Of a stretch of 39,677 bases of DNA, positions 1,935 through 28,613 are shown in pieces (position 1 is the first letter of the stretch; each line of letters opens with the position of its first letter). The stretch comes from a virus: the UHGV virus genome UHGV-1472620. One strand, given 5' to 3'. The position numbers and the translations under genes were made by a program. Under the pieces are notes generated by a model. It searched no databases. It saw only the letters and a program-made list of their open reading frames with translations, and was not told the DNA's origin.

Positions 1935-2154
1935 CGTTTATTACACATAACAATCTCCTTACTATTGAAGATTCACACATAATAAACCATTTAAGGATAA
2001 TAGTTACCTCAAAACGCTGTATTTCTACCTTCTACGGCAATGAAAATTTCGTTCAGAAAATGGTCTAGTGTACCTCTCAGTCACAATTAAAGAAGAAAGA
2101 AGCCGAACTTACTTCGTAATAAGCAAGCCGGCTACTAAGATTAATCCTCAATAT

Positions 2155-4911: not shown

Positions 4912-5015
4912 GTTAAATCTCCAGATAGTCGCAGCACCCGTTGCGCCGCATATCTGGTTATTCTATTACCTGGAAAACCACATATGGATAGAAAGGCTGT
5001 AAATACGAATAGATA

Positions 5016-8547: not shown

Positions 8548-8709
8548 ATGAAAAAAGCATTTGCTGCACTGTTCGTTTTGTTGTCTCTGGTAGCTTCAAC
8601 TCAGGCCTTTGCCGGTCGTTGTCAGCACGACAGCGATACTGCCGCTGACGGCTCCCGCTGCGGTGGGCGTTCTGCGGATTCCCGCCCGGGCGGCGGTGGC
8701 ATTCGTTAA
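8548..8709 (+). CDS. Small secreted peptide (signal peptide plus about 30-aa Cys/Gly-rich mature part)
   Basis: MKKAFAALFVLLSLVASTQAFA signal-like N-terminus; track ORF begins at 8476 but signal peptide favours 8548; weak Shine-Dalgarno. Confidence 0.35.
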   Translation: MKKAFAALFVLLSLVASTQAFAGRCQHDSDTAADGSRCGGRSADSRPGGGGIR

Positions 8710-8715
8710 AAACAA

Positions 8716-8737
8716 GGCCGCGAAAGCGGCCTGTTTG
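8716..8737. terminator. Hairpin GGCCGCGAAAGCGGCC plus T-tract
   Basis: Same hairpin as 5371-5386, followed by TGTTTG; sits between convergent stops 8709 and 8739. Confidence 0.6.
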
Positions 8738-8738
8738 A

Positions 8739-9590
8739 TCACTGTGCAGTTTTCGCTGATCGATTTTCAGCTCTAAATTCAAGAACCGTTTCAATATTTC
8801 TTTCCTTCAGCATATCAATAACATTTTTATTCATTTGACTATCACTGGTTAATAACTGGTAAACGTTGCTTCTCTCTTTATCAGAGTTTTCTTTAACAGC
8901 TGCTTTGCATGCCAAATGCTTATTGAAATTTTCTACATCGCTAGTACAGGAATTTACGGCTGCTGATGAAATATCAGACGCTGAAGAAACACCATCATCC
9001 AAACGTTTTATAGCATTTTCTATACATGAGTTAAGGGAATAAACGACAACTGAGCGATACCCTTCAGACGCACACCATTCTAAATTTCTTGAAGGATCGA
9101 GTGGTTTTACTTCGCTGGATTGAATTAACTTGTCAAAAACTGACTTATATTCAATCTGTTTTTTATCTATAGCCCATACTTCAGTAGCTGATTTATAATT
9201 CCCCGTATGCCTATTAACATCAAATCCATGCTTTATAAGCAAATCTGCCCATGAAAGATTTATTGATTCATTGTTATGAGGCCATTTTCCTGTCAGAACC
9301 GCCCCCATAGACCCCATATATCCGCCATATGATGGTATAGCACCATGGCTCAGTAACTTCTCAGCAACCACAGGGCAATTAATTACATAAGAGGCGTAAA
9401 GCCCATTCCATAAAGCCCCTCTATAGTAATCGCCACGATTAGGTTCTTTTAAGTCGATAGCCTTTGATAATTGTTCACACGTTTTGCATGCATCAAAGTT
9501 ATCCTTATTGCATTGCAATGAACTGGCAGCTGTAGGATTTACAGAGACTATTGAAAGCACTATGCCAAAAAACAAATTTATTTTTTTCAT
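8739..9590 (-). CDS. Secreted or periplasmic protein of unknown function
   Basis: N-terminal signal peptide MKKINLFFGIVLSIVSVNPTAASS; AT-rich; start abuts stop of 1129-aa virion protein (TAGGATG). Confidence 0.6.
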   Translation of the reverse strand: MKKINLFFGIVLSIVSVNPTAASSLQCNKDNFDACKTCEQLSKAIDLKEPNRGDYYRGALWNGLYASYVINCPVVAEKLLSHGAIPSYGGYMGSMGAVLTGKWPHNNESINLSWADLLIKHGFDVNRHTGNYKSATEVWAIDKKQIEYKSVFDKLIQSSEVKPLDPSRNLEWCASEGYRSVVVYSLNSCIENAIKRLDDGVSSASDISSAAVNSCTSDVENFNKHLACKAAVKENSDKERSNVYQLLTSDSQMNKNVIDMLKERNIETVLEFRAENRSAKTAQ

Positions 9591-22745: not shown

Positions 22746-23038
22746 TCCTGTTCACTGGCCTCTTTGGCCATCTTCAAATACTGTTCAGGGCAATGCGCCA
22801 TAACGCGCTGAAACAGTTCCAGCGCCAGATTGCGTTGCCCCTCATTAAATGCCATTGCCATAGCGTCCATCGGTGAGATAGCGGAAAACACACGGCCTTT
22901 CTCCAGCACCGACCAGACAACGCGACGCCCCTGTTCACTGCTCATGACAAAGCGAATGTCATCAATTTCACGCTGCGCCATGTCACGTTGCTTACGGGCG
23001 TTTTCTTCTTTCAGTTGATCGTCTTCGTAATCTGTCAT
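22742..23038 (-). CDS. Small head assembly protein
   Basis: 98 aa, start and stop overlap neighbours. Confidence 0.45.
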   Translation of the reverse strand: MTDYEDDQLKEENARKQRDMAQREIDDIRFVMSSEQGRRVVWSVLEKGRVFSAISPMDAMAMAFNEGQRNLALELFQRVMAHCPEQYLKMAKEASEQE

Positions 23039-24714
23039 TGTGATTGCCCACCCTGACCACTAACTGCATTCGCCATAGCTGACAAAACACTCGGATCCGA
23101 AGTTTTAGCTTCGCTTAGCGTCTTGGCACCCTGTGCCGCCGCCATCCCCATCGCCATCATTTGTTGCTGCTGTTGCTGCTGTGCCCGTTGCTGGCGAGCC
23201 TGCTCAACCTGTTCCTGCGGAACAATGACGGTTGGAGACACTCCGGACATATCAGCGAATGCATCGATCGCCTGATCAACGTTGAGTTTGTCGAGAGCTT
23301 CTGGTTTCGCTTGCGCAAGTTGACCAATGAAGTTAACCGTGGACGCCAGACTGGACAGGCCGATAGACTTCTGCGCCTGAGCCATGACGGAAATGTATTC
23401 GACCTTCAGGGGCATACCTTCCATCGCGTCAGGCGGTGGCGGCAGCATGTTTTTACGCACCATCATCGAGAAAGCGCGGTCAATGAGAGGGTTAAGACAT
23501 TCGTCGTTCAGACGCTCCAGAACCGGCCCCAACATCAGAAGTTTTTCTTCTTTCATTTCGATCACCGCTTCAACAGGCATCGAGCGGGTATTGATGTTCT
23601 GCAACATCATGAACAGATCGACAAAGTAGGCGCTGTTAATGATTTGACGAGTGTCCTGAATGTCTGCTACCAGATCTGCTGTACTGGGGTTAACCAGATA
23701 AGCAGGCCTGAAACCATCCTGACCAGTAATCTGATCGATATACGTGATGTCGCCAGGAAGAAGGGAGGCGCGCTGATTCTTGAGGGAAGTCGGAGCAACC
23801 ATCGGCGGATTGGTGGCTTTATCAATCAACTGCGACTTGCGCTTCTGGAGAAGCTGCAATGCCTTAACAGGTCCAAGCGCCAGCATACCCGGGCATGATG
23901 ATCCATAAACATCTTCGCCATTAACTTCCCAGCGCGGAGCCATAATTGGAAACTCATCAAATCCGGACTCACGCAACAACTTGTCGTTATCGCCACCAAC
24001 CTCGTAATAAACCGATTTGAATGGCTTGTTCTTGCTATCCAGCTTCGATGTATCGCGGTCAATGTTCGGGTAAACCGAATGCATCACGTCAATCCACTTC
24101 TCGTAGGTGCCGCTTTCCCACATGCTTTTTACGGATTCGCTGACGTTATTTAGCCCGAACTCCTGAACAAGCTGACGAACAGTCATAGAGAACTTGCGAA
24201 AACAGGTGTCCACACTGCCACGAGGTGAGTTAGCCAGGTAGTAACTGCCTATCGGGAATGGCATTGTGCGAATGATGTCCTCGTCATCCTCCAGCACCGC
24301 CATTGCACCAGTGCTGTATGTGCCGAGGCTTCCGTATAACTGCGGAAGAGACTGGTAGAGATTCGACTTATTGAACATATCGTTCATGCGGTTCTGCACC
24401 GCCTCAAGCCACAACTTAACAGGGCCATAATCCATCATTTCAGGATCTGGCGTAGCCAGGCGAAACCACGGACGCGCGGGGCTTGTGATGCCTGACATCA
24501 TGCCGCTGGCGAGAGTGCGCGCCGCCATAGTCCCGGTCGAATCAATAATGCGTGTATTGCGTCGATCGTTACGGTTGACCTCAGAAGTCAGAAAGCGGGA
24601 ACCACGCGGGTTGATGTAATCACTCAACTCGCGCCAGTGCGGCTCGAACGACTGACGCTCGCTTTCAAGTTGTGCGAACTGTTTGTTCAATCGCTCTTTA
24701 GTTGTTTCCGCCAT
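23035..24714 (-). CDS. Portal protein
   Basis: 559 aa with Gln-rich C-terminus; first large gene of head module; GGAG Shine-Dalgarno before ATG 24714. Confidence 0.8.
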   Translation of the reverse strand: MAETTKERLNKQFAQLESERQSFEPHWRELSDYINPRGSRFLTSEVNRNDRRNTRIIDSTGTMAARTLASGMMSGITSPARPWFRLATPDPEMMDYGPVKLWLEAVQNRMNDMFNKSNLYQSLPQLYGSLGTYSTGAMAVLEDDEDIIRTMPFPIGSYYLANSPRGSVDTCFRKFSMTVRQLVQEFGLNNVSESVKSMWESGTYEKWIDVMHSVYPNIDRDTSKLDSKNKPFKSVYYEVGGDNDKLLRESGFDEFPIMAPRWEVNGEDVYGSSCPGMLALGPVKALQLLQKRKSQLIDKATNPPMVAPTSLKNQRASLLPGDITYIDQITGQDGFRPAYLVNPSTADLVADIQDTRQIINSAYFVDLFMMLQNINTRSMPVEAVIEMKEEKLLMLGPVLERLNDECLNPLIDRAFSMMVRKNMLPPPPDAMEGMPLKVEYISVMAQAQKSIGLSSLASTVNFIGQLAQAKPEALDKLNVDQAIDAFADMSGVSPTVIVPQEQVEQARQQRAQQQQQQQMMAMGMAAAQGAKTLSEAKTSDPSVLSAMANAVSGQGGQSQ

Positions 24715-24935: not shown

Positions 24936-25025
24936 ATCAATGACTCCGTACGCAATTAAATTATTACCAATTTAACCACATATGATTTATTTATCGTAGG
25001 CAGTTGACATTTAACGCGCGAATTA

Positions 25026-25362: not shown

Positions 25363-25439
25363 GTGGCATTAGCTCAGTTGGACAGAGCAACCGCCTTCTA
25401 AGCGGTTGGTCGCAGGTTCGAATCCTGCATGCCACACCA
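25363..25439 (+). tRNA. tRNA-Arg, anticodon UCU
   Basis: Cloverleaf folds by eye: acceptor GTGGCAT/ATGCCAC, D-stem GCTC/GAGC, anticodon stem ACCGC/GCGGT with loop CTTCTAA, T-arm GCAGG-TTCGAAT-CCTGC, encoded CCA. Confidence 0.9.
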
Positions 25440-25637: not shown

Positions 25638-25994
25638 ATGAACGACCAGCAAATCGAAAAAGAAATCGTTGAGAAAGGCAAAACCGCTCCGCGAGTTACG
25701 CCTCAATATATCGAAAGCATCATTCTTGAAGAGCATTTCTTTACTGCTTATGACGGCATTCGTGCTGCCAATATGGGCGTTGGCGATTCATGGACAGCGC
25801 ATAAATCTACAGACCTCCTGACTTTCTGCGTATTGGTACTGAAGAATGGCTTCACCGTCACCGGAGAGAGTGCCTGTGCAAGTCCGGAAAATTTTGATGC
25901 AGAAATTGGTCGGAAGATTGCCCGGCAGAATGCTGTAAACAAAATCTGGATGCTCGAAGGTTACTTGCTGAAGCAGAAGTTAAGCGAGCAATAA
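25638..25994 (+). CDS. Small conserved phage protein (resembles the N4 gp49 / Sf6 gp66 family by recollection)
   Basis: 118 aa with strong AAGGTGAG Shine-Dalgarno; on + strand inside the minus-strand late region. Confidence 0.55.
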   Translation: MNDQQIEKEIVEKGKTAPRVTPQYIESIILEEHFFTAYDGIRAANMGVGDSWTAHKSTDLLTFCVLVLKNGFTVTGESACASPENFDAEIGRKIARQNAVNKIWMLEGYLLKQKLSEQ

Positions 25995-25998
25995 CACC

Positions 25999-26010
25999 GT
26001 GACATGTCAC
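25999..26010. promoter_or_regulatory. Perfect 12-bp palindrome GTGACATGTCAC
   Basis: Identical to 28264-28275; sits just after the stop of 25638-25994. Confidence 0.5.
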
Positions 26011-26014
26011 AAAC

Positions 26015-26042
26015 AGCCAGCCGATGAGCTGGCTTTGTTTTA
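26015..26042 (+). terminator. Intrinsic terminator
   Basis: Stem AGCCAGC / GCTGGCT with loop CGATGA then TTGTTTTAT. Confidence 0.65.
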
Positions 26043-26084
26043 TCCTCACCAGAGGATATCAACGACATTATCCCCACCAGCGGA

Positions 26085-27560
26085 TTAAGCATAGGGATCG
26101 TAATCTGTGATGGCCTTGCCTTGCTGGTTCTGCTGACCGGGAATTCGCAGACGCTTCGACACAGGGAACGCAAACGTCAGCAGTAGCGCATCGCCTTTAC
26201 CAGGAGAACGCCCAAGCCGCTCTTTGATATCTTCCTTCGGTTCGATAACGATTTTACCGTCCACTCGAACTTTGTACTCTGCCGCCGACAGGTCGTCCGC
26301 TGTTTCATGGTCATCCAGCATGCCGCCAAGCCTCAGCCATGTCTTGCATGAGTTGAACATCTCCCCACGCTTGTTGAGCATCTGCGGGTCAGTAGACGCG
26401 CCACCGAACGGAACAAGTTGCCATGTACGACCCCAGCCGTCACCGATTGACTTCAAACCGGTTCCGTAACCAAAGTCGATGAACACCGCGTCAGCCTGAT
26501 ACTGGTCTTCAAAGTCAGCGATACGCTTCGCCATAATCAGATCGTCGGTAGTCTTGTTTCCAGTCCACAGCACCTTACTGTGTAGCCCCTGCCGCAGGTA
26601 TATCACAGCGTCATCAACGCCGGAGTATGCCGGGTCAACGCCGATTATCACCGGAGCATGTGCAACCTGCGCAGCGGTTACCACCCGTTTTATTGCCTCG
26701 TCAGTAAGACCGGTAGGGATAAACTGCAATTCAGATGCATCAGGGAATATGCCACGCACACGGATTTTAACGAAGTCGCTGTCTTCCCCGTAGTCATCAA
26801 CCCATTTCTGCAACTGCTGTTTGTTGGTACCTTCCACCGTCCGACTGTCAATCTGCGCAGTTTTCCAGCGGTGTTTATACTTGCGGAAACATTCACGGAA
26901 ACGTCCGGTATTACGCGTCGGGTTTCCGAACGCCACCCAGATAATCTCAGTGTCTTCGTCCGTTAGCGCACCCTCGGCAACTTCCCACACCAGATCCGCA
27001 ATGTTCGACGCTTCATCGAATACCACGATGATGCGTTTGCGCTCATTGTGTAATCCGGCGAATGCCTCAGTGTTGTGCTCAGACCAGGGGATTGCGTCAG
27101 CTCGCCACCGCTTGTCGTGCCCAGGGTCATTGCTGTACATCGCGGTAGCGGTACAGGTAAACCAGTCTTTCGTGATAGCAAGGTTCGACCACTTGATAAT
27201 TTCCGGCCAAGTCTTCGTTCGTAGCTGGTTGTCGGTGTTGGCGGTCACCACGACCTTACAATCCTCGCAAGTGGACATGCCCCAGTTGATCAGCATTGAG
27301 ATGAATGCGGATTTACCAATACCGTGACCAGAAGCGCGTGCCAGCATAAGCGGCTGATAGCGCGTCTCTGGATTCTGCAGGTGATCACGTATCTCTCGGA
27401 ACGCATCAGCCTGCCACTGACGTGGGCCGGTGGCATGTGCCAGTTCAGTCCCCTCTTCCCCCCACGGGAACGCATAGAGGGCATAGCCAAGCGGATCGTG
27501 AGTGAACCCTGCAATATCTTCGATTAACTGCTCTTCAGGAGATAACACTGCATCTGTCAC
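26085..27560 (-). CDS. Terminase large subunit
   Basis: 491 aa, Walker A-like GHGIGKS, overlaps terS stop. Confidence 0.9.
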   Translation of the reverse strand: MTDAVLSPEEQLIEDIAGFTHDPLGYALYAFPWGEEGTELAHATGPRQWQADAFREIRDHLQNPETRYQPLMLARASGHGIGKSAFISMLINWGMSTCEDCKVVVTANTDNQLRTKTWPEIIKWSNLAITKDWFTCTATAMYSNDPGHDKRWRADAIPWSEHNTEAFAGLHNERKRIIVVFDEASNIADLVWEVAEGALTDEDTEIIWVAFGNPTRNTGRFRECFRKYKHRWKTAQIDSRTVEGTNKQQLQKWVDDYGEDSDFVKIRVRGIFPDASELQFIPTGLTDEAIKRVVTAAQVAHAPVIIGVDPAYSGVDDAVIYLRQGLHSKVLWTGNKTTDDLIMAKRIADFEDQYQADAVFIDFGYGTGLKSIGDGWGRTWQLVPFGGASTDPQMLNKRGEMFNSCKTWLRLGGMLDDHETADDLSAAEYKVRVDGKIVIEPKEDIKERLGRSPGKGDALLLTFAFPVSKRLRIPGQQNQQGKAITDYDPYA

Positions 27561-28153
27561 TGATTACCATCCTGACGTTCTTTGAGTCGCTTCCTGGCTG
27601 CCGCTATGCGATCAGCAATTGTCACATTCACATTAACATCCAGGCGCTCTTTGAACGCGTTGACGTCGACGTGCTTACCGATAAGCTCGAGGTTCTTCAC
27701 CTTGTCAGGCCATTTAATTTTTTTGAGGATTGTCTCTATCGAATCCTCGTTCATGTTCATGATGGTCGATGACAGATCAAAGCCGCTAAGCGTAGTGCGC
27801 CAGATTTTCGGCCACTCGCGGATTGGCTTAAGGCTCCCATCGTCGTTGAGGATGTCGATCACGTCCATCTGGTCGATCTCCACCAGGCGCATGAGAACGT
27901 AATCAGCACTGACGCGCATTCGTTTGTTGCGCTCCTCCATCAGCTCGGCAATCCGTTTTTGAATGCGTTCATCGCGCATCATGACACTGGCTTTAACTGC
28001 CGCTGTATTTGGGGAGAATCCTGCGTTAATCGCTGCCTGAGTCTGGTTTTCAGGCGTTTTGATGTATGACTGGCAATAAGCCTCCTGCATTGCTGTTAGT
28101 GGCTTAAATTGCGTTGATTTGCGTTTATAGGTTTTAGGTTCAGCAGGCATCAT
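27557..28153 (-). CDS. Terminase small subunit
   Basis: Upstream of and overlapping terL; start placed at ATGATG 28153 rather than the TTG 28231 used by the ORF track. Confidence 0.7.
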   Translation of the reverse strand: MMPAEPKTYKRKSTQFKPLTAMQEAYCQSYIKTPENQTQAAINAGFSPNTAAVKASVMMRDERIQKRIAELMEERNKRMRVSADYVLMRLVEIDQMDVIDILNDDGSLKPIREWPKIWRTTLSGFDLSSTIMNMNEDSIETILKKIKWPDKVKNLELIGKHVDVNAFKERLDVNVNVTIADRIAAARKRLKERQDGNQ

Positions 28154-28194
28154 AACCACCGTGGTAATAGTTACCGTTGTGGTAATAGTACCAT

Positions 28195-28222
28195 GCAAAA
28201 TAAAGCCGCCATAGTTGGCGGC
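28195..28222 (-). terminator. Intrinsic terminator upstream of terS (tR'-like)
   Basis: On minus strand GCCGCC-AACTAT-GGCGGC followed by TTTATTTTG. Confidence 0.5.
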
Positions 28223-28263
28223 AGTATTCAAAACCCATCAAATTCATCATGCATAATCTACTC

Positions 28264-28275
28264 GTGACATGTCAC
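28264..28275. promoter_or_regulatory. Perfect 12-bp palindrome GTGACATGTCAC (late promoter / regulator site candidate)
   Basis: Identical to 25999-26010; contains GTGACA -35-like hexamer on both strands. Confidence 0.5.
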
Positions 28276-28613
28276 ACTATTAATTTCGTTTCATGCCAGC
28301 CTTTAGTCACCCAGCATTGCGAGTCACCATTACACGGGCATGAATTAACGGGAACTCTCTCGCCGCACTTACCGCAAAGTTTTCTGCTGATCGATTTTAT
28401 ACGCCCGCGCACACGTGCATCATCCTGGCGGATCAGCAGCGCGATGTACTCGGCCATTTCATAGGGATCGCGACTAGGGCGCCGGGCGGCGCAGTTCCGC
28501 GCCAGCATTTCAATTTCCTGAGCATCAAGCACAATTTCCAGCTTACACACACCAGATGCAGCTTGTCTGGCTCTCTGAGCGGCTTTGCGCTCTGCTGCTG
28601 ATTTAGCCATCAA
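28272..28613 (-). CDS. Small Cys-rich protein, candidate late-gene regulator (Q-like antiterminator?)
   Basis: 113 aa, C-terminal CGKCG ... CPCNGDSQC zinc-ribbon-like cluster; last early gene before terS. Confidence 0.4.
   Translation of the reverse strand: MMAKSAAERKAAQRARQAASGVCKLEIVLDAQEIEMLARNCAARRPSRDPYEMAEYIALLIRQDDARVRGRIKSISRKLCGKCGERVPVNSCPCNGDSQCWVTKGWHETKLIV

What the first reader, a model, noticed from the sequence alone, without database searches (positions are those of the whole stretch)
25999..28275. Identical 12-bp palindromes bracket the terminase genes, each next to a terminator
GTGACATGTCAC occurs at 25999-26010 and 28264-28275, an exact 12-mer repeat unlikely by chance in 40 kb. 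The upstream copy overlaps the stop of the Cys-rich 113-aa gene and is followed on the minus strand by a terminator just before terS. That is the promoter / terminator / late-gene layout expected for antitermination-controlled late genes, with the Cys-rich protein as a candidate Q-like factor. The second copy lies beyond terL next to another hairpin and could be a second entry point for the portal-to-tail operon.
Basis: partly seen in the sequence, partly recalled or inferred. Interest (0 to 1): 0.5.

Follow-up and report, generated by a model that had tools for sequence, protein, structure and literature searches.

The report
Phage regulator's conserved DNA-binding site
The two identical 12-base palindromes are real and are copies of a short DNA motif (GTGAC-NN-GTCAC) that travels with one family of small zinc-binding phage proteins across very different phages, so they are most likely that protein's binding sites at operon boundaries, not a lambda-Q-style late promoter.

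Summary
Observation confirmed. GTGACATGTCAC occurs exactly twice (25999-26010, 28264-28275); 0 of 100 shuffles give two copies. The window is a phiV10/epsilon15-like podophage with late genes on the minus strand. One copy contains the TGA stop of the 113-aa Cys-rich gene and lies 41 nt before a strong terminator ahead of terS. The other lies 4 nt beyond the hairpin after terL, at the 3' end of an opposite-strand accessory gene.

The 113-aa protein belongs to PHROG 536. It has an RHH-like N-terminal half and four invariant Cys. GTGAC-N2-GTCAC follows this family: 79/79 close relatives carry it on the stop codon. So do N15, phiKO2, a Yersinia P2-like phage, Pantoea AH07, a Vibrio phage and a 33%-identical homolog. 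Genomes with the gene hold 1-3 copies where about 0.03 are expected; P22 has none.

The protein-site link is therefore strongly supported. The Q-like antitermination model is not:
- there is no Q homology;
- the family co-occurs with true Q genes;
- the promoter-like hexamers lie in and just before an 8-codon remnant of a deleted ORF;
- a different conserved motif sits directly upstream of the portal operon and the tailspike gene.

Best reading: a cognate operator acting as a gate at transcription-unit boundaries. Whether it blocks or permits passage is unresolved.

The parts
28264..28275 (.). Palindrome copy 1, GTGACATGTCAC (GTGAC-N2-GTCAC element). It contains the TGA stop of the 113-aa gene and lies at the early-operon / packaging-gene junction.
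   Evidence: Present at this position in 79/79 testable close relatives. The equivalent element lies on the stop codon in N15, phiKO2, Yersinia vB_YenM_56.17, Pantoea AH07, Vibrio 10N.237 and L220.
25999..26010 (.). Palindrome copy 2. It lies at the convergent junction between terL (minus strand) and the opposite-strand accessory-gene slot: 4 nt after the accessory gene's stop and 4 nt before its terminator hairpin.
   Evidence: Exact within 140 nt of the terL stop in 53/80 relatives, point-mutated in 8, replaced by other sequence in 18. It is a precise junction for at least 7 cargo gene types.
28272..28613 (-). Gene for the 113-aa Cys-rich protein ('p113'), a PHROG 536 member. It has an N-terminal basic arm plus an RHH-like beta-alpha-alpha region and a C-terminal 4-Cys (C80, C83, C92, C100) zinc module. 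It is the presumed binder of the palindrome.
28197..28222 (-). Intrinsic terminator (GCCGCCAACTATGGCGGC + TTTATTTT) between the palindrome and terS.
   Evidence: Folds. Equivalent terminators 23-24 nt after the palindrome in diverged relatives L050 and L102.
28228..28254 (-). 8-codon ORF remnant (MHDEFDGF*) of a 70-aa ORF that is intact in 30/79 relatives. Its start overlaps the promoter-like hexamer CATGAT; the -10-like TAGATT lies just upstream of it.
27557..28150 (-). terS (Terminase_2).
26085..27560 (-). terL (P1 PacB-like).
26015..26043 (+). Hairpin AGCCAGCCGATGAGCTGGCT + TTGTTTTAT. It is a strong terminator for the + strand accessory gene. On the late (minus) strand the T-tract is weak.
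25638..25994 (+). Accessory ('cargo') gene, Phage_gp49_66 family. Its stop is 4 nt before palindrome copy 2.
   Evidence: The same family in other phages is not followed by the palindrome.
25363..25439 (+). tRNA-Arg (TCT), in the same opposite-strand insert as the accessory gene.

Best explanation
The two palindromes are copies of GTGAC-N2-GTCAC (with flanks, two inverted 7-bp half-sites, Y-GTGAC-N | N-GTCAC-R). This is the cognate recognition element of the p113 protein family: about 112-aa phage proteins with a basic N-terminal arm, a ribbon-helix-helix-like domain and a C-terminal four-cysteine zinc module.

The protein, made as the last gene of the early operon, most likely binds this DNA as dimers on the two half-sites.

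In this phage one site is built into the regulator's own stop codon, at the junction between the early operon and terS-terL. The other lies at the far boundary of terS-terL, where it meets an opposite-strand accessory-gene slot. Both sites lie on the outer side of the two strong terminators that bracket terS-terL. An incoming polymerase (early-operon polymerase on the minus strand, accessory-gene polymerase on the plus strand) therefore meets the site first and the terminator second.

I read the pair as a boundary 'gate' that controls passage of transcription (or ribosome loading) from one unit into the next. I lean towards negative control (roadblock or occlusion, assisting termination and insulating terS-terL), not Q-like antitermination.

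Shown:
- the repeat is non-random;
- the motif co-occurs with the protein family over wide evolutionary distances;
- its preferred position is on or next to the family gene's stop codon;
- its other positions are just before terS, Q, mor/gemA and xis, or next to terminators.

Inferred:
- direct binding by p113;
- DNA as the target, not RNA;
- the sign of regulation.
For: (1) Non-randomness. The window has 2 exact copies, with 0/100 shuffles reaching 2. Counts of GTGAC-N2-GTCAC against shuffle means of 0.01-0.03 per genome: window 2, ZX5 3, N15 3, Vibrio K308 3, AH07 2 (no shuffle reached these) and Yersinia phage 1 (reached in 4/300). P22, which lacks the gene, has 0.

(2) Link to the protein, in loci chosen by protein similarity only.
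- 79/79 close relatives carry the site on the stop codon.
- The same holds in N15 (36% identity) and phiKO2, Yersinia P2-like phage (42%), Pantoea AH07 (58%), Vibrio 10N.237 (37%) and L220 (33%). In Vibrio VPHZ6 the site starts 2 nt after the stop.
- Nine representatives at 30-44% identity carry 8 sites in 49 kb, where 0.05 are expected.
- C-terminal tails of different length run into the site's TGA.

(3) The site goes with the regulator, not the cargo. gp49/66-family genes in mEpX1, STGO-35-1 and SCNJ1-C lack it.

(5) Half-site sequence is invariant from Vibrio to Escherichia while the central 2 nt vary. The RNA mini-hairpin is only -2.9 kcal/mol (z = -0.05). This fits base-specific reading of duplex DNA better than an RNA structure.

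(6) Positions favour gating or negative control.
- 19-23 nt before the terS ATG in K308 and L223.
- Over codons 2-5 of a true Q gene in L073/L114.
- Abutting the Shine-Dalgarno sequence of the next gene in N15, L012, L019 and 30/79 Uetakeviruses.
- Just before gemA/mor in Mu-like L224.
- Before xis in AH07-type phages.
- Inside repA in N15.

(7) The portal operon and the tailspike gene have their own conserved promoter-like motif. terS-terL can therefore be an insulated unit bounded by site plus terminator on both sides.
Against: - In Uetakeviruses every site is followed within 0-41 nt by a strong terminator in the direction of that terminator. No sigma-70-like promoter was found between the terminator and terS. 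Both points fit a positive read-through role as well as, or better than, a roadblock.
- A roadblock directly in front of an efficient terminator looks redundant.
- Copy 2 is dispensable: it is lost or mutated in about a third of relatives.
- Some family members have no site within 3 kb (L221, L222, Aeromonas phage).
- How repression would be relieved to allow packaging-gene expression is unexplained.
Confidence: 0.55

Rival explanations
1. Positive control by antitermination. p113 loads onto RNA polymerase at the palindrome, either Q-like at a promoter or promoter-independently. It lets the polymerase read through the terminator before terS, switching on packaging and late genes. Other copies act at other terminators.
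For: - Layout is regulator gene - site - terminator - terS. The same order, with 23-24 nt spacing, is seen in diverged relatives L050 and L102.
- In Uetakeviruses every site precedes a strong terminator by 0-41 nt on the strand where that terminator is strong.
- No obvious sigma-70 promoter lies between the terminator and terS.
- No Q or N homolog is known in this genus, and p113 is the last early gene.
- A promoter-like GTGACA-18-CATGAT overlaps the site.
Against: - No homology to Q families. The family coexists with true Q genes.
- The promoter-like segment is not conserved: CATGAT overlaps an ORF remnant, and in 30/79 relatives an intact 70-aa ORF occupies this position.
- In many lineages the site abuts a start codon or Shine-Dalgarno sequence with no terminator (K308 terS, the Q start, N15 gene 47).
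- For copy 2, read-through of the accessory-gene transcript would run antisense into terL.
- The fold resembles RHH repressors.
- A separate conserved promoter-like motif serves the portal and tailspike units.
Confidence: 0.2
2. An RNA-level operator. The palindrome acts in the mRNA as a small hairpin on the regulator's stop codon, directly upstream of the next gene's ribosome-binding site. p113 (arginine-rich N-terminal arm, zinc module) binds it to control translation initiation, coupling or stability of the downstream cistron. Known parallels (from memory) are Mu Com on mom mRNA and coat-protein/RegA-type translational repressors.
For: - Sites lie in transcribed 3' UTRs or intercistronic regions and very often directly abut a Shine-Dalgarno sequence or start codon. 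Spacings: 9-12 nt to the ATG in N15, L012, L019 and Uetakeviruses with the extra ORF; 19 nt in K308 (twice); over codons 2-5 of Q.
- The stop codon is embedded in the element.
- The N-terminal ERKAAQRARQ arm is conserved.
- A palindrome gives the same RNA from either strand.
Against: - The hairpin is weak and no better than shuffled sequence (-2.9 kcal/mol, z = -0.05).
- Stem bases are invariant without any compensatory change, while the loop centre varies. This is the opposite of typical protein-RNA hairpin operators.
- The fold resembles DNA-binding RHH proteins.
- Sites next to terminators at convergent junctions (copy 2, the ZX5 third copy) have no downstream cistron.
Confidence: 0.12
3. 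A recombination or module-boundary element. The palindrome is a hotspot or site at which accessory genes and modules are exchanged. Its conservation reflects that role, possibly promoted by p113, and not transcription control.
For: - Homology between relatives breaks exactly at the palindrome.
- At least 7 unrelated or diverged cargo ORFs in the terL-distal slot all end stop + 4 nt + palindrome.
- At least 7 different genes precede the palindrome plus terminator at the ZX5 third-site position.
- Many different modules follow the p113-linked copy.
Against: - The same cargo family elsewhere lacks the palindrome, so cargo genes do not carry it as cassettes.
- No duplicated site flanks inserted genes (for example, the extra 70-aa ORF has only one).
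- No recombinase is associated with it.
- Any conserved functional patch between variable segments will look like a junction.
- Sites inside coding regions (Q start, repA) are hard to explain this way.
Confidence: 0.07
4. A chance repeat or neutral relic with no function.
For: Copy 2 is dispensable in many relatives.
Against: - 0/100 shuffles reach two copies.
- The motif is 70- to 170-fold enriched in family-bearing genomes and is positioned on the stop codon in at least 6 independent lineages.
Confidence: 0.01

Closest known systems
Lambda-type Q antiterminators with qut/QBE inside PR' followed by tR' (Pfam Phage_antitermQ PF06530, Phage_antiter_Q PF06323)
   Same: The gene order is regulator, then DNA site, then terminator, then late genes. 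A zinc-binding small protein is encoded immediately upstream of its site.
   Different: - No sequence or fold similarity.
- No conserved promoter or pause element at the site.
- The family coexists with genuine Q genes, and one of its sites even overlaps the start of a Q gene.
- It often lies far from late genes.
Phage P1 Lpa and its late promoters (9-bp inverted repeat centred at -22 plus a -10 box; gene order lpa-LPpac-pacA-pacB)
   Same: - A small regulator gene lies directly upstream of PacA/PacB-type terminase genes, with a short palindrome just after its stop.
- phiV10 terL is PacB-like.
- In the window a -10-like TAGATT starts 3 nt after the palindrome.
   Different: - Lpa (150 aa, no Cys) is unrelated to p113.
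- The P1 box is AAGTTACTT-like.
- The -10-like element is not conserved among relatives.
- Many sites have no room for a promoter.
RinA/Ltr-type late activators of Gram-positive phages (bind upstream of terS; a terminator separates rinA from terS; PMC3152322)
   Same: The regulator gene lies immediately upstream of terS, a terminator separates them, and the regulator-specific DNA region lies next to the regulator gene.
   Different: - A different protein family; p113 has no Pfam match.
- The p113 site also occurs away from terS.
- Activation has not been shown.
Ribbon-helix-helix repressors binding short repeated sites, e.g. P22 Arc/Mnt and omega of pSM19035 (7-bp WATCACW heptads in direct or inverted arrays; recalled from memory)
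   Same: - The predicted fold class matches.
- Two inverted 7-bp units with a TCAC-containing core fit the way omega dimers occupy adjacent heptads.
- Small size and an N-terminal arm are shared.
   Different: - p113 adds a C-terminal four-Cys zinc module.
- Its operator lies on its own stop codon instead of at its promoter.
- No structure or binding data exist.
Phage Mu Com (zinc-finger translational activator of mom whose RNA target lies at the com/mom junction; recalled from memory)
   Same: A small zinc protein whose target lies at the 3' end of its own gene, directly upstream of the next cistron's start.
   Different: - Com binds RNA and is unrelated in sequence.
- The p113 element is a DNA-type palindrome with a weak RNA fold.

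Membership tests
Lambda/82/21-type Q antiterminator system | Protein homologous to a Q family (PF06530, PF06323 or Q82-type) | tested here: not met
   No Pfam hit for p113 or for 13 diverse homologs, even at E up to 10. No NCBIfam hit. The Q gene of L073 scores 1.5e-48 in the same kind of scan.
Lambda/82/21-type Q antiterminator system | Binding element embedded in a sigma-70 late promoter, with a promoter-proximal pause and a terminator downstream | tested here: not met
   A 9/12 promoter-like match overlaps the site and a terminator follows. However, the -10-like hexamers lie in and just before an ORF remnant, and in 30/79 relatives an intact 70-aa ORF occupies this position. Pausing is not testable here.
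Lambda/82/21-type Q antiterminator system | Acts as the phage's late-gene switch (one Q-type regulator per phage) | tested here: not met
   Family members coexist with true Q genes in L073, N15 gp40, AH07 and L221.
Ribbon-helix-helix (RHH/MetJ-Arc) DNA-binding proteins | Beta-alpha-alpha fold forming a dimer with a two-stranded sheet | tested here: inconclusive
Ribbon-helix-helix (RHH/MetJ-Arc) DNA-binding proteins | Binds short direct or inverted repeats near the genes it controls | not testable with these tools
   Co-occurrence of GTGAC-N2-GTCAC with the family is strong. Binding itself needs EMSA, footprinting or ChIP.
P1 Lpa-type late promoter activation | Protein homologous to Lpa | tested here: not met
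   BLASTP of p113 against P1 Lpa gives a best E of 0.27 over 7 residues.
P1 Lpa-type late promoter activation | Palindrome centred near -22, at a fixed distance from a -10 hexamer, upstream of each late unit | tested here: not met
   The window has TAGATT 3 nt after the site. The spacing and hexamer are not conserved. There is no palindrome upstream of the portal, tailspike or lysis units.
Integron-like gene cassettes (attC at the 3' end of each cassette) | The palindromic site travels with the cassette ORF and is recombined by an associated integrase | tested here: not met
   The gp49/66 cargo family in three other phages lacks the palindrome. Inserted ORFs are not flanked by two sites. No integron integrase is in the window.
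N/nut-type RNA-based antitermination | A stable boxB-like RNA hairpin recognised through its loop, with stems that covary | tested here: not met
   The hairpin is -2.9 kcal/mol, z = -0.05. Stem bases are invariant and loop bases vary across lineages. RNA binding itself is not testable here.

The most novel reading that the evidence does not exclude
The p113 family plus GTGAC-N2-GTCAC is a portable, self-contained developmental 'gate'. A small RHH-zinc regulator has its operator built into its own stop codon. The module is inserted at the end of early operons in podo-, sipho- and myophages (P2-like, Mu-like, N15-like, lambdoid, epsilon15-like). It times or limits entry into the next stage by acting directly in front of terS, Q, mor, xis or antirepressor genes. 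This would be an undescribed, widely shared layer of lysis-lysogeny or late-gene timing control, possibly working by roadblock-assisted termination or by promoter-independent antitermination.
Probability: 0.3. Interest if true: 0.75.

Novelty: new variant of a known kind. Interest (0 to 1): 0.58.

Why it matters
The late-gene switch of epsilon15/phiV10-type podophages is, as far as I know, uncharacterised, and nothing on it turned up in the searches run here. PHROG 536 proteins are annotated only as 'hypothetical' or generic 'transcriptional regulator'.

The data here give that family a precise, testable 12-14 bp target. They also show that the same protein-site pair sits in front of stage-switch genes (terS, Q, mor/gemA, xis) in very different temperate phages of Enterobacterales and Vibrio.

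That makes a simple set of experiments possible: EMSA, and a site-mutant phage that keeps the stop codon. These could reveal a common timing or insulation device. The result would improve annotation of prophage regulatory regions. It would also inform engineering of phiV10-type reporter phages, where accessory-gene slots bounded by this site are natural insertion points.

Tried and rejected
- Promoter reading. The consensus scan gave one 9/12 match at the site. Comparison with relatives showed that its hexamers lie in and beside a non-conserved ORF remnant, so this reading was rejected.
- P1 Lpa analogy. The synteny lpa-pacA-pacB and the -22 palindrome looked attractive. The proteins are unrelated and the geometry is not conserved.
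- Packaging site. The phiV10 record starts inside the palindrome, but that start looks arbitrary or restriction-site based. N15 is a cos phage whose sites lie far from cos. Rejected.
- Invertible segment or cassette (attC-like) idea. No invertase is present, cargo genes elsewhere lack the site, and inserts are not flanked by two sites.
- Host transcription-factor sites (CRP, LexA and others). No match from my own recall of their consensus sequences. This was not tested computationally.
- Literature. Full-text searches for the palindrome and its variants found nothing relevant. The ZX5 paper does not treat it.
- Frequency in the host chromosome. This could not be measured with the tools. Chance expectation is about 0.3 copies of the 12-mer per 5-Mb genome.
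Full report
**What the window is**

The window matches phiV10/epsilon15-type podophages (genus Uetakevirus) at about 95% identity over the region of interest. Its gene order follows that of annotated phage ZX5.

Late genes run on the minus strand in this order:
- a block of small early genes ending in a 113-aa Cys-rich ORF (28613..28272; 'p113');
- terS (28150..27557, Terminase_2);
- terL (27560..26085);
- a plus-strand insert with tRNA-Arg(TCT) (25363-25439) and a 118-aa Phage_gp49_66 gene (25638-25994);
- a small gene, then portal (24714..23035) and the virion genes.

**The observation**

GTGACATGTCAC occurs at 25999-26010 and 28264-28275 only. None of 100 dinucleotide-preserving shuffles gave two copies. 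Relaxing the pattern adds no further site.

The copy at 28264-28275 contains the TGA stop of p113. On the minus strand it is followed after 41 nt by GCCGCCAACTATGGCGGC + TTTATTTT (28222-28205), then by terS.

The copy at 25999-26010 lies 4 nt after the stop of the plus-strand 118-aa gene. It lies 4 nt before AGCCAGCCGATGAGCTGGCT + TTGTTTTAT (26015-26034), a good terminator for that gene. On the late strand the same hairpin follows terL and has only a weak T-tract.

**The protein**

p113 has no Pfam or NCBIfam match. It is a full-length member of PHROG 536, labelled 'transcriptional regulator'. The big protein collection holds 694 clusters at 90% identity, nearly all unnamed proteins of Enterobacteriaceae. 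There are 146 clusters at 50% identity.

An alignment of 14 diverse members shows an invariant basic arm (R9, K10, Q13, R16). It also shows a pattern compatible with strand-helix-helix and four invariant cysteines: C80, C83, C92, C100.

I take the protein to be an RHH-like DNA binder with a C-terminal zinc module. This is an inference, not a demonstration.

**The motif follows the protein**

I fetched eighty IMG/VR loci by similarity to p113, not by the motif.
- 79 of 79 testable loci carry the palindrome on the stop codon.
- 56 carry exactly one further copy within 10 kb each way, in nearly all of them just past terL. Of these, 53 lie within 140 nt of the terL stop.
- None has a copy in the 10 kb of early genes upstream.

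More distant homologs were found by tblastn or HMMER alone. They show the same arrangement with a variable central dinucleotide:
- N15 gp46 (36% identity) and phiKO2 end in GTGACTGGTCAC;
- a Yersinia P2-like phage (42%) ends in GTGACGCGTCAC;
- Pantoea AH07 (58%) ends in GTGACCTGTCAC;
- Vibrio 10N.237 (37%) ends in GTGACAGGTCAC;
- Vibrio VPHZ6 has the site 2 nt after the stop;
- L220 (33%) ends in GTGACTGGTCAC.

The protein's C-terminal tail varies in length, yet keeps ending in the site's TGA. In Mu-like L224 the ORF reads through, but the site sits at the homologous position.

Whole genomes carrying the gene hold 1-3 copies against shuffle means of 0.01-0.03. P22, which lacks the gene, has none. 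Nine representatives at 30-44% identity carry 8 sites in 49 kb, where 0.05 are expected.

Conversely, the gp49/66 cargo family in three other phages is not followed by the palindrome. The element therefore belongs with the regulator, not with the cargo.

This co-occurrence across podo-, sipho- and myophages of several genera is the main result.

**Where the sites lie**

In Uetakeviruses I see three positions:
1. On the p113 stop, followed by a terminator and terS. In 30/79 relatives a 70-aa ORF comes first.
2. After terL, at the 3' end of a variable opposite-strand cargo gene. At least seven different cargo ORFs, including a Tad2-like anti-Thoeris protein, all end stop + 4 nt + palindrome + terminator.
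3. In ZX5 and many IMG/VR contigs, on the stop codon of the last gene of the virion operon, directly before its terminator. The window has that terminator but not the palindrome.

In each case a polymerase travelling in the direction for which the neighbouring terminator is strong meets the site first, 0-41 nt before the hairpin.

In other lineages the site lies:
- 19 and 23 nt before the terS ATG (Vibrio K308, L223);
- over codons 2-5 of a genuine Q gene in lambdoid prophages (L073, L114; PF06530);
- against the Shine-Dalgarno sequence of the next gene (N15 gene 47, L012, L019);
- before xis (AH07 type);
- before gemA/mor (L224);
- upstream of the N15 antirepressor operon, and inside N15 repA.

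The common denominator is the boundary between an early operon and a gene set belonging to the next developmental step.

**Why the Q-like model is not supported**

Five points count against it:
1. p113 has no Q homology and an RHH-like fold.
2. Family members coexist with true Q genes. One of their sites overlaps a Q start codon.
3. The only promoter-like match (GTGACA-18-CATGAT) is not conserved. CATGAT overlaps, and the -10-like TAGATT lies just upstream of, an 8-codon remnant (MHDEFDGF*, 28254..28228) of the 70-aa ORF found intact in 30/79 relatives. In those relatives the site is about 227 nt from the terminator and directly abuts that ORF's ribosome-binding site.
4. In several lineages there is no room for a promoter between the site and the next start codon.
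5. The second copy is a poor 'entry point'. It is 1.07 kb upstream of the next late gene, across antisense tRNA and cargo. It is mutated (GTGATATGTCAC, GTGACATGCCAC, GTGACATGTCAA) or replaced in about a third of relatives.

Instead, an exact 18-specified-base motif, CATATGTGGTT-N5-GGTAATA, lies 26 nt upstream of the portal-operon leader gene (24984-24962). It also lies 52 nt upstream of the tailspike ATG (4986-4964), with 0/100 shuffles reaching two copies. It is conserved in 67/80 relatives and in Klebsiella-type cousins, and is absent from unrelated phages. This is a better candidate for late promoters.

The P1 analogy was also examined: lpa-LPpac-pacA-pacB, with a palindrome at -22. Lpa is unrelated to p113 and the geometry is not conserved.

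**DNA or RNA**

The half-sites GTGAC/GTCAC are invariant from Vibrio to Escherichia without any compensatory change, while the centre varies. The RNA mini-hairpin is weak and no better than shuffled sequence (-2.9 kcal/mol, z = -0.05).

With flanks the element reads as two inverted 7-bp units. From memory, omega-type RHH repressors occupy adjacent heptads in this way. I therefore favour duplex DNA as the target. An RNA or translational role cannot be excluded, because so many sites touch ribosome-binding sites.

**Mechanism, and how sure**

I am fairly confident (about 0.7) that GTGAC-N2-GTCAC is the cognate cis-element of the p113 family and that both copies in the window are functional instances.

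The direction of control is open.
- For negative control (roadblock or occlusion that assists termination and insulates terS-terL): the RHH-type fold; sites over start codons and inside genes; the harmlessness of a block at the cargo-side site; and separate promoter-like motifs for the other late units.
- For positive control (read-through): the consistent site-then-terminator order in Uetakeviruses, and the absence of a recognisable promoter between the terminator and terS.

I lean to negative control. Overall confidence in the combined statement is 0.55. I give 0.2 to an antitermination role.

A recombination-site role would explain the sharp mosaic junctions. It fits poorly with cargo genes lacking the site elsewhere and with sites inside coding regions (0.07).

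**Novelty**

Full-text searches for the palindrome and its variants found nothing relevant. The family has no curated name.

Phage-encoded DNA-binding regulators with palindromic operators are a known kind. New here are the specific family-motif pair, the operator embedded in the regulator's own stop codon, and its recurrence in front of terS, Q, mor and xis across unrelated phage types. I class it as a new variant of a known kind, of moderate to good interest, and directly testable.

Noticed in passing
window 24962-24984 (-) and 4964-4986 (-): Exact repeats of CATATGTGGTT-N5-GGTAATA lie 26 nt upstream of the small gene that leads the portal operon and 52 nt upstream of the tailspike ATG. None of 100 shuffles gave two copies. 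The motif is conserved in 67/80 Uetakevirus loci and in Klebsiella-type relatives, and is absent from N15, K308, AH07 and P22. They are candidate late promoters or activator sites.
   Followed up: partly
window 28161-28192 (-) and 1998-2008 (-): Direct repeats GGTACTATTACCAC and GGTAACTATTACCAC lie between the terminator and the terS ATG. GGTAACTATTA recurs upstream of the lysis cassette. They are partly conserved in diverged relatives L050 and L102. They could be a second promoter class, a terS leader element or a packaging-related site.
   Followed up: partly
window 28228-28254 (-); L132 10350-10560: An 8-codon ORF (MHDEFDGF*) is the remnant of a 70-aa ORF (MPKIRYDLED...YDEFDGL). That ORF is intact between the palindrome and the terminator in 30/79 relatives. 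A similar tiny ORF, MKYEFDGF*, occupies the terL-distal cargo slot in L134, L153 and L178.
   Followed up: partly
window 25638-25994 (+) and equivalent slot in L125-L204: The opposite-strand slot after terL is a hot spot for accessory genes. It holds at least 7 ORF types, including gp49/66-family proteins, a Tad2-like (PF11195) anti-Thoeris protein and a 139-142-aa family of unknown function. All are bounded on one side by the palindrome plus terminator.
   Followed up: partly
window 8548-8735 (+): A 53-aa secreted peptide gene (MKKAFAALFVLLSLVASTQAFA...) is followed by the same hairpin (AAGGCCGCGAAAGCGGCCT) that adjoins the third palindrome of phage ZX5. In the window, however, the palindrome and the ZX5 gene next to it are replaced by a different gene (8739-9590).
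   Followed up: partly
L001/L004 (phiV10 NC_007804.2 ends): The phiV10 reference record begins inside this palindrome (GTAACATG|TCAC, one mismatch). It annotates terS as 224 aa from a TTG, an ORF that runs across the terminator hairpin. This is probably an over-extended start.
   Followed up: no
L006 6283-6370: A LexA-box-like TACTGTTTAAATATACAGTA and a umuD-like gene are inserted immediately after the p113-linked palindrome. Phage Chlobot is annotated the same way.
   Followed up: no
L011, L016, L021, L073, L114, L123: In lambdoid prophages the exact palindrome forms codons 2-5 (MRDMSQ) of a Phage_antitermQ gene. L114 has three sites within 5.2 kb around Q. L073 also carries a p113 homolog with GTGACCTGTCAC on its stop.
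   Followed up: partly
L207 (N15) 28550, 33237, 39269: N15 holds three copies of the same 12-mer GTGACTGGTCAC. One is on the gp46 stop, one lies between the repA operon and the antirepressor operon, and one is inside repA. About 0.04 are expected.
   Followed up: partly
L172 12049-13982: terL is split by an insertion of about 1.9 kb in one IMG/VR relative.
   Followed up: no
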